A stretch of 64,000 nucleotides of DNA from an uncultured Methylomirabilota bacterium (lineage in GTDB: Bacteria; Methylomirabilota; Methylomirabilia; Methylomirabilales; 2-02-FULL-66-22). Positions 16,401 through 19,400 of this stretch are shown here, piece after piece. Location of the stretch: positions 960,001-1,024,000 of the forward strand of contig CAWJSJ010000001.1 in the NCBI GenBank assembly GCA_963845565.1, in the 5' to 3' direction. Numbering within the stretch: position 1 is the first letter of the stretch; each line of letters starts with the position of its first letter. The position numbers were made by a program.

Positions 16401-19400
16401 CGATCCGCCGCCAACGTGGTCAGTCGTTCGTCCCAGAGATGAACGGGCACCTGGAAGCGCTCTGCCACCGCGCGGGCAAACGCGCGCGCCGCGTCCGCGG
16501 AGGGACCCTCGCTCCCATCCATGTTCCTGGGGAGCCCCACCACGATCTCGTCGGCGTGCAGCAGGGAGACGTGGCCAGCGATCTCGTCCAGCGCCTGCGC
16601 ATCACTTCGCCGTGTGACCGTGCTCAGGCCGTGGGCGGTCAGACCCAGGTCATCGCTCACGGCCACCCCAAGCCTCGCCCACCCCCAATCCACCGCCAGG
16701 ATCTTCGTCATCAGCCCAGTCGCTCCGTCGCCTGAGGACCGGCGTGGCGGTCCGGGTCCGGACGCGTTCCCGGCCGGCCCTCTCTGCGCGCCCGCCATCC
16801 TCGCATTCACGGTGCCCGACGCGTTCAGGATGTCAAGGGCTTTGCGTCGGCGACGTCAAACGCCGGGTTGCAGTATATCATAAAGGAACCGGGTCTTCGA
16901 CGCTTCCTTGGCGCCCCGGCGGCCCGTCCCGGCACCGCGCCGCCCCAAACACCGCGGCCGGAACCCGATCGGCCCCGGCCGCGTCACCACGCACGCCTCG
17001 GGACGGGACCAGGCCCCGCCAGAGACCGCCCCGTCACGGCTTCTGGCGTGACCACAGCATGTTGTACCCCTCCACGAAGGCGTTTACCGAGGCCACGATC
17101 ACGTCCGGCGAGGTCCCGCTGGCCACCACCCGGTTGTTCTTCGTATCCTTCATGGTGATGGTAGTCTCAACCGAGGCGTCCGTCCCGGGTGAGTTGATCT
17201 CGACCTGAAAGTCCACCAGGTCGAAAAAGAGCTTTCCCCGGCTCTCGGCGGCGCTCTTCAGGGCGTTCACCACGGCATCCACCGGACCGACACCGGTCGC
17301 GTCGGACTGCACGCGCTCGCCGTCGAAGGTGATCCAGACCTTGGCGGACGCCTTGCGCTTGAGCGAGGTGGTGATCTGGAAGTCCTCCACCTCGAGGATG
17401 GGCGCCGGCTCGGACAATGCCTTCAGCACATTCTCCACGATATACTGGAGATCCGCCTTGGTGATCTGTTTCCCCTTCTCGACGAAATCGGTCACCAGGG
17501 CGGTCACACGCTTGGCGTACGCCGCCGTGAGCTTCACCCCCAGCTCCGTCCGCACGGTCGCCACCACCTGCGACTGCGATGGCGGACGCGGAAACATCCC
17601 GCGATCCCCTTCCCGGGCCCCGGCCGCGCGGATCTCGTAGAGCCGCAAGCGCAAGAACTTGTCCACCTCGGCCATGGTCGGCTCGATGGTGGCCGGCGAC
17701 GGCAGCACCTTGAGAGCCGCCCTGGGGTCCTTCAGGCCGTTCCCGGTGGCAAGGCACACCACGACCTCGTCCGGCCTGATCCGCCCCGTGGTCAGCAAGG
17801 ACGACAGGGCGGCGACGGGAATGGCGCCCGACGGCTCGACAAAGATGCTTTCCTGGTGCGCGAGCTGCTGCTGCGCGTCCAGGATCTCCGCGTCGCTCAG
17901 AATGACGCCGCAGCCCCCGGATTCCCGCATGGCCGCCAGCGCTTTGAGGCCATCCAGCGGATCCCCCGCCGCCACCGCCGTGCAGACCGTGAACGGCTTC
18001 TCGACCGGCGTGGGGGCATCCAGCCCTTGCTGGAATGCCGTCAAGATGGGCGCACAGCCCTCGGCCTGAACCCCGATCATCCGCGGCAGTCGGTCCACCA
18101 GACCGAGCTCGTAAAATTCCTTGAAGCCTTTCCAGACCGCCGCCATGTTCGTCCCGCAGCCCATGGGCACCAGGACGGCGGCCGGCGGCCGCCAGTCGAG
18201 TTGCTCGATGATCTCGAACGCCTGAGATTTCTGCCCCTCCACCCGGAAGGCGTAGTCGCCGGCCAGGTAGAAGCCGTGGCGTTCGCTCATCTCCTCGGTC
18301 AGCCGCGCGGCGTCGCTGTAGGTGCCACGCACCTGCATCAGGCGCGCCCCGTACGAGAGCGCCTGCGCCAGCTTGCCGATGGCGGTTCCTTCCGGCACCA
18401 GCACGTAGCACGTGAGCCCAGCAACCGAGGCGTAGGCCGCCACCGAGGCCGCCATGTTCCCGGTGGAGGCGACGCAGACCGCCTTGGCCCCAAGTTCCTT
18501 TGCCTTCGTCAACTCGACCAGGCTGCCGCGGTCCTTGAACACGCCGGTCGGGTTCGCGCCTTCGTTCTTGATGTACAGGTCGCGGATACCGGTGCGTTCG
18601 GCCAGGCGGGTGCACCGATACAAGGGGGTGCCCCCCTCGTTCATCGAGACCACCAGATCGAGATCGAGCAGCGGGTAGAAATCGAGGTACTTGAGGGCCT
18701 TGACCGGTGAGGTGCGCAGGGAGTAGCGGTTCAATCTGGATCGGATGTAGGCGTAATCGTATCGGACATCCAGGGGATGCCGGCAGTCGGGACAGCGAGT
18801 GCTCGATTCCTTTTCCCGAACCAGTCGGCCGCAGGAGATACAGCGCAGCTCGTAGAAGCTGGTCCCGTTCTTTCGGCTCTTCGGCCCCATCGGTCCCCCT
18901 ACCCGTTGAGAATTCGTGGGAGTGTATAGACACTGCACGACAGTGTCAAGGAATTCACCCGAGAACGCGGCGCTCGCACTCCGATGGCGGAGACACGCCG
19001 GCGTTTTGAACGGAGCACTGCTCGTGTTTTCCGTTTCGGCAGAGAGTTATGGCGAAGAGTGAAAGTGGGAGATGAAGCCCGTTTACCCGTTTCAAGCGAC
19101 GCACAGGCGGCTTTCTCCGGGGAATAATAAATGGAGGGGAATCTGGGGTAGTATGTGCGCAGACTAATCACTCAGCATATAATTATATCAATGTGTTAGA
19201 GAATGTTACTGATGTGATTCTTAAGAATATCCAAATCGAGAATCCTGCCGAAAACCTACCGTGAGATACCCGGAAAAGCTCCACCGGTCATACGCGCCCA
19301 TATCGCCGCCATCCCCACGGAACGGACCGCCGCTTGAAGAGCCCGACCAGAAGCACGCCGGCCGCAAAGCCTCCGATGTGCGCGAACCAGGCGACCCCTC

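What a model noticed while it worked through the whole genome (the two positions that open the first line are those of the whole stretch)
17034..18890. A second threonine synthase carries the leucine-sensing regulatory tail of isopropylmalate synthase
g00936 (618 aa) is a threonine synthase fused in one frame to the C-terminal part of LeuA, including the allosteric domain PF08502 with its GxGPVDA motif. A plain thrC (g03335) lies separately behind hom. The fusion is conserved across Methylomirabilales and suggests a threonine synthase under branched-chain amino-acid feedback.
Evidence so far: TIGR thrC 248 bits over a cut of 167 at residues 80-389; LeuA models at 446-616. Full-length 72-84% orthologues in f1, f3 and f2, 3 of 5 genomes tested. 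120 listed database proteins all bear PF00291 plus PF08502, among them Ca. Methylomirabilis oxyfera and a Peregrinibacteria protein.
(Added by a program. Inside this text positions count along the whole contig: contig position 960,001 is position 1 of the stretch shown here. "Call 12" and the like, gene names such as g00115 and contig names such as C1 are that model's own, and its searches are not shown. The text may have been shortened before it was handed on; [...] marks where a part breaks off. The agent that wrote the report below was given it as the finding of a first reader that could run no searches.)

Follow-up and report, generated by a model that had tools for sequence, protein, structure and literature searches.

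The report
Threonine-synthase-derived isoleucine pathway starter enzyme
This gene, labelled 'threonine synthase' in databases, is a real fusion of a remodelled threonine-synthase-like enzyme with an amino-acid-sensing domain, and it most likely starts isoleucine synthesis in uncultured bacteria that lack the usual starter enzymes, although no enzyme test exists yet.

Summary
The fusion is real: 618 aa, ThrC-fold PLP domain plus LeuA/CimA regulatory domain, conserved in Methylomirabilales and Gracilibacteria/Peregrinibacteria. The reading 'leucine-regulated threonine synthase' is mostly not supported. (1) Three ThrC motifs are replaced in every fusion (GNT to GNM, NS to GD, GNAG to GxGT). (2) In 20 of 26 Patescibacteria loci the gene adjoins an ilv gene or ridA; 17 of 49 loci have Ile-run leader peptides (control 2 of 226), even where it stands alone. 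(3) It tracks ilvC (42 of 44), not homoserine dehydrogenase, and mirrors IlvA/CimA in two lineages: own order fusion 30/33, CimA 0/33, IlvA 3/33; sister orders 0/88, 79/88, 62/88; ilvC-positive Gracilibacteria have IlvA in 1/42 with the fusion, 12/21 without. (4) The sensor domain best matches the isoleucine-bound CimA structure and has CimA-type pocket residues. Best explanation: a non-orthologous, isoleucine-inhibited threonine deaminase making 2-oxobutanoate (0.72; any 2-oxobutanoate-forming role about 0.87). No biochemistry; residue roles are recalled. No paper found in 9 searches. This scan reached the same reading before on other genomes (8 notes listed).

The parts
17034..18890 (-). Fusion gene, 618 aa (P0001): ThrC-derived PLP enzyme + LeuA/CimA accessory and regulatory domains; proposed IlvA replacement
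   Evidence: AlphaFold model mean pLDDT 87.5
18783..18842 (-). N-terminal CxxC...CxxC putative zinc ribbon (C17, C20, C33, C36), as in archaeal-type ThrC
   Evidence: nearly invariant in alignment A1; metal binding inferred
17742..18650 (-). PLP fold-type II catalytic domain (PF00291, aa 81-383), ThrC fold
   Evidence: M. tuberculosis ThrC Z 41.7, rmsd 2.2 over 319
18534..18536 (-). Lys119, PLP Schiff-base lysine (FKDRG; aligns to Lys61 of T. thermophilus ThrC)
   Evidence: invariant in 95 of 95; alignment; role recalled
18453..18455 (-). Met146 replacing the ThrC Thr of STGNT (Thr88 in T. thermophilus)
   Evidence: invariant in 95 of 95
18243..18260 (-). Remodelled loop G211-D212-Y-A-F-R216: Asn-Ser pair replaced, one residue shorter, new invariant Asp, Arg kept
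   Evidence: G211, D212, R216 invariant in 95 of 95
18147..18161 (-). G244-x-G246-T247-N248 loop replacing ThrC G-N-A-G-N (Asn188 lost)
17418..17642 (-). Helical linker (aa 417-491); its C-terminal part matches the LeuA accessory region, so the graft is longer than the Pfam domain
   Evidence: LeuA models align from aa 446-449; helices in model; role inferred
17055..17468 (-). LeuA/CimA allosteric domain (PF08502, aa 475-612) with GVGPVDA and CimA-type pocket residues I565 and V574
   Evidence: 3f6g Ile-bound CimA domain Z 17.5, rmsd 1.5 over 114; Leu-bound LeuA 3fig Z 13.5
18921..18949 (-). Sigma-70-like promoter match (10 of 12) 30 nt before the ATG; favours ATG 18890 over GTG 18938 as start
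   Evidence: consensus match only
45303..48724 (-). Context: ilvB-ilvN-ilvC, the downstream consumers of 2-oxobutanoate, 26 kb away and not co-transcribed
55948..57486 (-). Context: the genome's complete LeuA, the only other PF08502 protein found; no CimA found

Best explanation
The protein is a non-orthologous replacement of biosynthetic threonine deaminase (IlvA), evolved from an archaeal-type threonine synthase. Proposed mechanism: Lys119-PLP binds L-threonine (probably also L-serine), removes the alpha-proton and eliminates the beta-hydroxyl, which reverses the last hydration step of ThrC. It releases 2-aminocrotonate, which RidA or water turns into 2-oxobutanoate plus ammonia for IlvBN-IlvC-IlvD-IlvE. 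The phosphate pocket that makes ThrC specific for O-phospho-homoserine is rebuilt (Thr to Met146, Asn-Ser to Gly211-Asp212, Asn to variable); the invariant Asp212 next to Arg216 may stand in for the phosphate as acid-base group. A CimA-type regulatory domain, grafted with part of its accessory linker, dimerises and binds isoleucine to inhibit the enzyme, doing the job of IlvA's ACT-like domain. SHOWN: fusion, fold, motif replacement, operon position, Ile-run leaders, RidA linkage, complementary distribution, CimA-like pocket sequence. INFERRED: reaction, substrate, role of Asp212, isoleucine inhibition.
For: Motifs: M146, G211, D212, G246, T247 invariant in 95 of 95 fusion sequences, while the canonical ThrC rows keep GNT, NS and GN. 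Context: in 26 Patescibacteria loci the next gene is ilvE/ilvD/ilvB in 17, ridA is adjacent in 3, none in 6. Leaders: 17 of 49 loci carry an III-containing short ORF within 250 nt, most followed by a hairpin and U-run; control 2 of 226 other ORFs; own order 0 of 25. In G265, G215 and G235 the fusion is the only co-directional gene behind such a leader. Distribution: own order fusion 30/33, CimA 0/33, IlvA 3/33; other orders 0/88, 79/88, 62/88. Class of G022: 42 of 44 fusion genomes have ilvC against 21 of 207 others; among 63 ilvC genomes an IlvA-like hit is in 1 of 42 with and 12 of 21 without the fusion; 3 of 3 tested such hits pass IlvA cut-offs. G022 (single chromosome): the fusion is its only PF00291 protein, beside ridA; ilvB, ilvC, ilvD found; hom, thrB, LeuA/CimA not found. 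G057 (1 contig, 100% complete): 6 PF00291 proteins = CysK, CysM-like, ThrC, a ThrC-like paralogue, TrpB, the fusion; one HMGL-like protein. Sensor: best PDB match by sequence and fold is Ile-bound LiCMS; I565 in 91/95 and V574 in 92/95 match I/V and T/V in 9 of 9 TIGR00977 CimA, against A/S and G/A in 17 of 17 bacterial LeuA. Precedent: passages of PMC12172450 report threonine deaminase activity of ThrC enzymes in vitro.
Against: No enzyme assay or genetics. The phosphate-binding roles of the replaced residues and the selectivity role of the two pocket positions are recalled; the source papers were not readable. Arg216, a recalled phosphate ligand, is invariant, and the protein passes thrC cut-offs. 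4 of 50 fusion genomes also have an over-cut-off IlvA and 8 more, including the window's genome, have a short dehydratase-like protein. The window's genome also has two regulatory-domain-less LeuA/homocitrate-synthase-like proteins of unknown substrate. In the own order there is no ilv linkage and no leader. The phylum contrast is one clade switch, kin are not independent, and most genomes are incomplete. 3 of 12 hom-positive Patescibacteria genomes show no separate ThrC. Ile codons also occur in thr-operon leaders (recalled). Overall the sensor domain scores highest to archaeal LeuA and CimA alike (75-100 bits; bacterial CimA 39-51). Relatives without the sensor in Thermococcus-like contigs have no ilv neighbour (0 of 9).
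Confidence: 0.72

Rival explanations
1. It makes 2-oxobutanoate for isoleucine, but by gamma-elimination from O-phospho-homoserine, homoserine or an O-acyl/sulfur C4 amino acid, bypassing threonine.
For: All operon, leader, RidA and distribution evidence fits any 2-oxobutanoate-forming reaction. Arg216 and Lys173 are kept. ThrC chemistry begins with gamma-elimination (established mechanism, recalled). The own order has hom and G057 has thrB.
Against: 14 of 26 Patescibacteria fusion genomes show no hom, including single-chromosome G022, which also shows no thrB; three of the recalled phosphate ligands are replaced.
Confidence: 0.15
2. It is a genuine second threonine synthase under branched-chain amino-acid feedback, perhaps with deaminase as a side activity.
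For: Passes TIGR00260 and PRK08197 cut-offs; closest structures are ThrC; K119, K173, R216 kept; 3 of 12 hom-positive Patescibacteria genomes show no other ThrC.
Against: Motif replacement; forms a group apart from canonical ThrC in the quick tree (SH-aLRT 89 against 100); present without hom/thrB; separate ThrC tracks hom (9/12 against 2/14); ilv operon position and complementarity to IlvA/CimA are left unexplained.
Confidence: 0.06
3. It is mainly a serine deaminase or general catabolic dehydratase that feeds pyruvate to acetolactate synthase.
For: RidA linkage fits 2-aminoacrylate release as well; IlvA-type enzymes accept serine (recalled); reduced Patescibacteria metabolism may need pyruvate (inference).
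Against: Ile-run leaders on monocistronic copies, CimA-type sensor, and the gap in 2-oxobutanoate supply that it fills.
Confidence: 0.04
4. It is a gamma- or beta-substitution enzyme like other ThrC paralogues (MetM homocysteine synthase, cysteate synthase), unrelated to isoleucine.
For: ThrC homologues are often misannotated, e.g. MetM (passage in 10.1101/2024.10.14.618325); CapA2 is the second fold match (Z 39.4).
Against: Cysteate synthase model 86.6 bits against cut-off 324.9; the recurring neighbours that were scanned are ilv genes and ridA; it does not explain sensor, leaders or distribution.
Confidence: 0.03

Closest known systems
Short-type threonine synthase ThrC, EC 4.2.3.1 (TIGR00260; A. 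aeolicus 2ZSJ, T. thermophilus 1UIM/1V7C, M. tuberculosis 2D1F, B. subtilis 6NMX)
   Same: Fold and ancestry: 38-44% identity, Z 41.7; PLP lysine, STGN loop, Lys173, Arg216.
   Different: GNT to GNM, NS to GD with a one-residue deletion, GNAG to GxGT; 200-aa regulatory extension; linked to ilv genes and ridA rather than hom/thrB.
Biosynthetic threonine deaminase IlvA, EC 4.3.1.19 (TIGR01124, TIGR01127, TIGR02079; E. coli 1TDJ)
   Same: Works like it, by inference: fold-type II PLP enzyme with a C-terminal allosteric domain, in ilv operons with ridA, mutually exclusive with it in most genomes.
   Different: Not a member: 65-91 bits against cut-offs 379-441, about 22% identity, outside the dehydratase group in the tree, LeuA/CimA-type instead of ACT-like regulatory domain.
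Citramalate synthase CimA regulatory domain (L. interrogans, PDB 3F6G/3F6H, isoleucine-bound; PF08502)
   Same: Best solved match by sequence (E 1.3e-5) and fold (Z 17.5, rmsd 1.5 over 114, 28% identity); shared beta-branched pocket positions. PMC13381585 section 9 shows that this domain alone senses isoleucine selectively.
   Different: Attached to a PLP enzyme, not to a TIM-barrel acyl-CoA condensing domain; the N-terminal pocket motif is GVGPVD, as in LeuA and archaeal CimA.
2-Isopropylmalate synthase LeuA regulatory domain (M. tuberculosis 3FIG, leucine-bound)
   Same: Same Pfam family, GxGPVDA motif, part of the accessory region; Z 13.5.
   Different: Small residues (A/S and G/A) at the two pocket positions in 17 of 17 bacterial LeuA against I and V in the fusion; the genome has its own complete LeuA.
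Moonlighting ThrC of Microcystis aeruginosa (PMC12172450)
   Same: A ThrC-family protein with threonine deaminase activity in vitro (abstract and passages).
   Different: Described there as bifunctional and toxic under threonine excess; the passages seen mention no fused LeuA/CimA domain or ilv operon; not compared by sequence here.

Membership tests
Threonine synthase ThrC | Family HMM above curated cut-off | tested here: met
   TIGR00260 247.7/167.1; PRK08197 313.7/303. The model also passes long-type ThrC and paralogues, so it is broad.
Threonine synthase ThrC | Fold-type II PLP fold with Schiff-base lysine (FKDRG) | tested here: met
   K119 invariant; Z 41.7 to 2D1F
Threonine synthase ThrC | Conserved substrate-phosphate motifs GNT, NS and GN (Thr88, Asn154/Ser155, Asn188 in T. 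thermophilus; roles recalled) | tested here: not met
   Replaced by M146, G211/D212, C245 (variable) in all fusion rows; kept in canonical rows
Threonine synthase ThrC | Conserved Arg160 equivalent | tested here: met
   R216 invariant in 95 of 95
Threonine synthase ThrC | Occurs with the pathway that makes its substrate (hom, thrB) | tested here: not met
   hom not found in 14 of 26 Patescibacteria fusion genomes, including single-chromosome G022; separate ThrC tracks hom; most genomes incomplete
Threonine synthase ThrC | O-phospho-homoserine to threonine activity | not testable with these tools
   needs assay
Threonine deaminase IlvA | Family HMM cut-off and placement in the dehydratase group | tested here: not met
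   TIGR01127 91/379, TIGR01124 65/411, TIGR02079 66/441; quick tree with 3 dehydratase rows, long branches
Threonine deaminase IlvA | ACT-like C-terminal regulatory domain | tested here: not met
   Only PF00291 and PF08502 found
Threonine deaminase IlvA (role) | Linked to ilv genes and ridA; complementary to other 2-oxobutanoate sources | tested here: met
   linkage is absent in the window's own order
Threonine deaminase IlvA (role) | Threonine to 2-oxobutanoate activity, inhibited by isoleucine | not testable with these tools
   needs assay
LeuA regulatory domain (leucine-sensing) | PF08502 fold and GxGPVDA motif | tested here: met
LeuA regulatory domain (leucine-sensing) | Small residues at the two pocket positions aligned to I565 and V574 | tested here: not met
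   LeuA A/S and G/A in 17 of 17; fusion I 91/95 and V 92/95; link to selectivity recalled
CimA regulatory domain (isoleucine-sensing) | Beta-branched residues at these positions; structural likeness to Ile-bound LiCMS | tested here: met
   9 of 9 TIGR00977 CimA and 3F6G share them; the presumed archaeal CimA (L194) shares only the second
CimA regulatory domain (isoleucine-sensing) | Binds isoleucine selectively | not testable with these tools
   needs binding or inhibition assay
Cysteate synthase | TIGR03844 cut-off | tested here: not met
   86.6 against 324.9
MetM homocysteine synthase | Linked sulfur-carrier genes (metO, mec, moeZ) | tested here: inconclusive
   None among the 41 neighbour proteins scanned; not all neighbours were scanned and no MetM model was run

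The most novel reading that the evidence does not exclude
A third, independently evolved and feedback-controlled entry into isoleucine synthesis that skips threonine altogether: the remodelled ThrC stops after gamma-elimination and releases 2-oxobutanoate directly from O-phospho-homoserine or homoserine (at least in Methylomirabilales), with an invariant aspartate taking the place of ThrC's catalytic phosphate and a CimA-derived sensor setting the Thr/Ile branch point.
Probability: 0.12. Interest if true: 0.82.

Novelty: new variant of a known kind. Interest (0 to 1): 0.64.

Why it matters
If true, it closes an unnoticed gap in isoleucine synthesis in Methylomirabilales (which include the nitrite-dependent methane oxidisers) and in amino-acid-making Patescibacteria, where neither IlvA nor CimA is found. 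It would correct a widespread 'threonine synthase' annotation that can inflate claims of threonine synthesis in these groups. It would be a clean case of convergence: IlvA's function and its feedback rebuilt from two other parts. It would show the LeuA/CimA sensor working on an unrelated catalytic fold, and gives a natural test of what sets ThrC against deaminase chemistry. One complementation test in E. coli decides it.

Tried and rejected
Assembly or frame artefact: rejected (118 of 120 homologues with both domains; many independent genomes). GTG start at 18938: less likely, since it lies inside the promoter match and homologues begin near the ATG. Riboswitch, T-box or leader before the window's copy: no Rfam match near a gathering score; no III leader in 25 own-order loci. 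Neighbourhood in the own order (ruvX, mltG, TPR gene, rhomboid, others) varies between families and shows no amino-acid link. Single-sequence fold of the C-terminal 228 aa failed (pLDDT 49.8) and was not used; Foldseek on the whole model listed only PLP-domain hits in the rows shown. Sensor-less relatives as a third test of ilv linkage: 0 of 9 Thermococcus-like contigs had ilv neighbours; one further fusion locus (L227) headed an ilv operon, and a canonical ThrC (L231) also lay near ilvD, so proximity alone is not unique to the fusion. The careful tree did not finish; only the quick tree on 73 hand-picked rows was read. Papers on ThrC phosphate ligands were not found or not held. No complex prediction and no read mapping were run. 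Four of 53 fusion loci (L018, L026, L041, L090) were left out because of the size limit.
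Full report
Observation. The window holds one uninterrupted reading frame at 17034-18890 on the minus strand, 618 aa from an ATG. A sigma-70-like promoter match lies 30 nt upstream (consensus only). Pfam finds PF00291 at 81-383 and PF08502 at 475-612. TIGR00260 scores 247.7 against a cut-off of 167.1, and LeuA models align at 446-616. Of the 120 best database homologues, 118 carry both domains and 2 are partial; where a source names them, the name is 'threonine synthase'. A plain thrC follows hom elsewhere in the genome, and a complete leuA and ilvB-ilvN-ilvC lie in the window. The AlphaFold model from 95 sequences is confident (mean pLDDT 87.5): zinc-ribbon-like N-terminus, PLP domain, helical linker, regulatory domain.

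The catalytic site is not that of ThrC. Counting along the printed alignment to T. thermophilus ThrC, Lys61 is K119, Lys116 is K173 and Arg160 is R216, all kept. Thr88 becomes M146, Asn154-Ser155 become G211-D212 with a one-residue deletion, Asn188 becomes C245, and Phe134 becomes Y191. In alignment A1, M146, G211, D212, R216, G244, G246, T247 and N248 are invariant in 95 of 95 sequences of 33-90% identity. The closest canonical relatives, mostly archaeal, keep GNT, NS and GN, as does the genome's own ThrC. That Thr88, Asn154, Ser155, Arg160 and Asn188 hold the substrate phosphate, and that this phosphate steers ThrC towards threonine rather than 2-oxobutanoate, is recalled. Searches for those residues found nothing and two papers asked for were not held. 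A quick tree of 73 hand-picked rows puts the fusions and sensor-less proteins with the same signature in one group (SH-aLRT 89), apart from canonical ThrC (100) and from three dehydratases (100, long branches).

Gene context points to isoleucine. The scan of species genomes returned 79 loci: 53 with the fusion (27 Methylomirabilales-like, 26 Gracilibacteria/Peregrinibacteria-like) and 26 single-domain archaeal ThrC-like genes. In the 26 Patescibacteria loci the next gene is ilvE, ilvD or ilvB in 17, ridA is adjacent in 3, and 6 show neither (2 of them at contig ends); ridA lies inside the operon in 3 more. RidA clears the enamines that dehydratases release (established knowledge); ThrC releases none. 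Within 250 nt upstream, 17 of 49 Patescibacteria loci have a short ORF with three or more consecutive Ile codons, most followed by a hairpin and U-run; 2 of 226 other ORFs in the same loci do, and 0 of 25 own-order loci. The idea of looking for leaders came from an earlier scan note. In G265, G215 and G235 the fusion is the only co-directional gene behind such a leader, so the gene itself seems to be induced by isoleucine shortage. Thr-operon leaders also hold Ile codons (recalled), but these three leaders have 2, 1 and 0 Thr codons. In the window's own order there is no such linkage.

Distribution mirrors the known 2-oxobutanoate sources. In 121 genomes of the phylum, the own order has the fusion in 30 of 33, CimA (TIGR00977) in 0 of 33 and IlvA (TIGR01127, E up to 1e-100) in 3 of 33; the other orders have 0, 79 and 62 of 88. 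This is one clade switch, so it counts once. In 251 genomes of the class of G022, 44 have the fusion and 63 ilvC; 42 have both. Among the 63, an IlvA-like hit is in 1 of 42 with the fusion and 12 of 21 without; 3 of 3 such hits tested pass IlvA cut-offs. Fisher values overstate, because kin are not independent. G022, a single-chromosome assembly, has the fusion as its only PF00291 protein beside ridA, has ilvB, ilvC and ilvD, and shows no hom, thrB, LeuA or CimA: no substrate for a threonine synthase and no leucine pathway to sense. G057, one contig and 100% complete, has six PF00291 proteins, none a dehydratase, and LeuA as its only HMGL-like protein. In 26 Patescibacteria fusion genomes a separate long-type ThrC is found in 9 of 12 with hom and 2 of 14 without. 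All 12 second PF08502 proteins of Patescibacteria that were tested are LeuA, not CimA. Against: of 50 fusion genomes (49 of 53 loci plus the own), 4 also have an over-cut-off IlvA and 8, including the window's genome, a short dehydratase-like protein; 38 have neither. The window's genome also has two LeuA/homocitrate-synthase-like proteins without regulatory domain. The tallies include genomes flagged unpublished: G010 and G012 and G096, G078, G106, G137; G010/G096 is one of the exceptions with both fusion and IlvA. No conclusion depends on them.

The sensor looks isoleucine-type. The only clear PDB sequence match of the C-terminal 138 aa is 3F6G, which the fold search titles as the L. interrogans citramalate synthase regulatory domain with isoleucine: Z 17.5, rmsd 1.5 over 114 residues, against Z 13.5 for leucine-bound M. 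tuberculosis LeuA. At I565 and V574 (Ile458 and Val468 of LiCMS; numbering anchored on K463/T464 in PMC13381585 section 9), the fusion has I in 91 and V in 92 of 95. TIGR00977 CimA have I/V and T/V in 9 of 9, bacterial LeuA have A/S and G/A in 17 of 17. That these positions decide selectivity is recalled from Zhang 2009, seen only as a reference entry. By overall score the domain is nearest archaeal LeuA and CimA alike, which with the archaeal-type catalytic domain suggests an archaeal source of both parts (inference).

Mechanism. Most likely the enzyme runs ThrC's last step backwards: threonine aldimine, alpha-deprotonation by K119, loss of the beta-hydroxyl, release of 2-aminocrotonate, hydrolysis by RidA or water to 2-oxobutanoate. 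D212 beside R216 may replace the phosphate as acid-base group. Isoleucine bound in the dimeric CimA-type domain would inhibit through the helical linker. Confidence 0.72; a gamma-elimination route to the same product 0.15; true ThrC 0.06; serine deaminase 0.04; substitution enzyme 0.03. ThrC enzymes can deaminate threonine in vitro (PMC12172450, abstract and passages), so the evolutionary step is small.

Comparison and novelty. It works like IlvA but is not a member; it descends from ThrC but fails its motif and context tests. Nine paper searches in an open-access library found no description; the three most direct (69, 90 and the residue searches) returned zero papers. Seen: passages of 10.1101/2024.10.14.618325 (no mention of threonine deaminase or oxobutanoate; warns that MetM is misannotated as ThrC), PMC12172450, PMC13381585 (passages and section 9), PMC7826400, PMC9166423 (one passage: Gracilibacteria encode branched-chain pathways), PMC7311316. 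No supplements were read, and subscription journals are not covered. My reading was noted before the look-up; the scan's earlier notes give the same reading for 8 other genomes. They are not independent support. This window adds the Methylomirabilales side, where operon context is silent and the case rests on the absence of IlvA and CimA.

Verdict. Real feature, first interpretation partly right, probably a misannotated, convergently evolved and isoleucine-controlled entry enzyme of isoleucine synthesis. New variant of a known kind; interest 0.64; directly testable by complementation.

Noticed in passing
L045-L062, L146, L156, L158, L160, 250 nt upstream of the fusion: Ile/Leu/Val-rich leader peptides followed by hairpin and U-run, i.e. 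apparent ribosome-mediated attenuators in Gracilibacteria/Peregrinibacteria (17 of 49 loci; control 2 of 226).
   Followed up: partly
P0148, P0153, P0158, P0167, P0170, P0188, P0195, P0202 and others; L218-L226: A wider group of 350-420 aa ThrC-like proteins shares the GNM / G-[DN]-Y / GxGT signature without the sensor domain, including cultured Thermococcus spp. and a Nanohaloarchaeon; the Thermococcus-like copies have no ilv neighbours. Possibly catabolic Thr/Ser deaminases and a testable entry point.
   Followed up: partly
window 33304-35097 (-): One open frame of 597 aa holds both an RNA 3'-terminal phosphate cyclase (aa 53-374) and an N-acetyltransferase (PRK07757, aa 442-589), each over cut-off: a fusion or two genes in frame without a stop.
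   Followed up: no
G000:C5:25261-27971 (L005, L010): A third ThrC-like paralogue (below cut-offs, non-canonical motifs) directly followed by a second, distant PLP fold-type II gene; function unknown.
   Followed up: no
G000:C4:211222-212508 and G000:C5:15855-17063 (L014, L016): Two LeuA/homocitrate-synthase-like proteins without regulatory domain, below all cut-offs; substrate unknown.
   Followed up: no
G000:C1:382198-383253 (L002): Short Ser/Thr-dehydratase-like protein without ACT domain, below cut-offs; could be a second 2-oxobutanoate source in this genus.
   Followed up: partly
G210:C22:16547-19614: In a genome with many in-frame TGA (recoded), the fusion is followed 300 nt later by ilvC.
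   Followed up: no
L037, L038, L040: Records titled as Patescibacteria, Sulfotelmatobacter or Baltobacteraceae carry copies 73-84% identical to the window's gene with Methylomirabilales-like neighbours; labels or bins may be off. They were counted with the own-order group.
   Followed up: no
G057:C1:863817-880827 (L279, L282, L292): A ThrC-like paralogue lies near cysK and a cysM-like gene; possibly a MetM-type sulfur enzyme.
   Followed up: no
window 19000-19260: AT-rich intergenic stretch upstream of the gene in an otherwise GC-rich window, with a second promoter-like match at 19182-19209.
   Followed up: no
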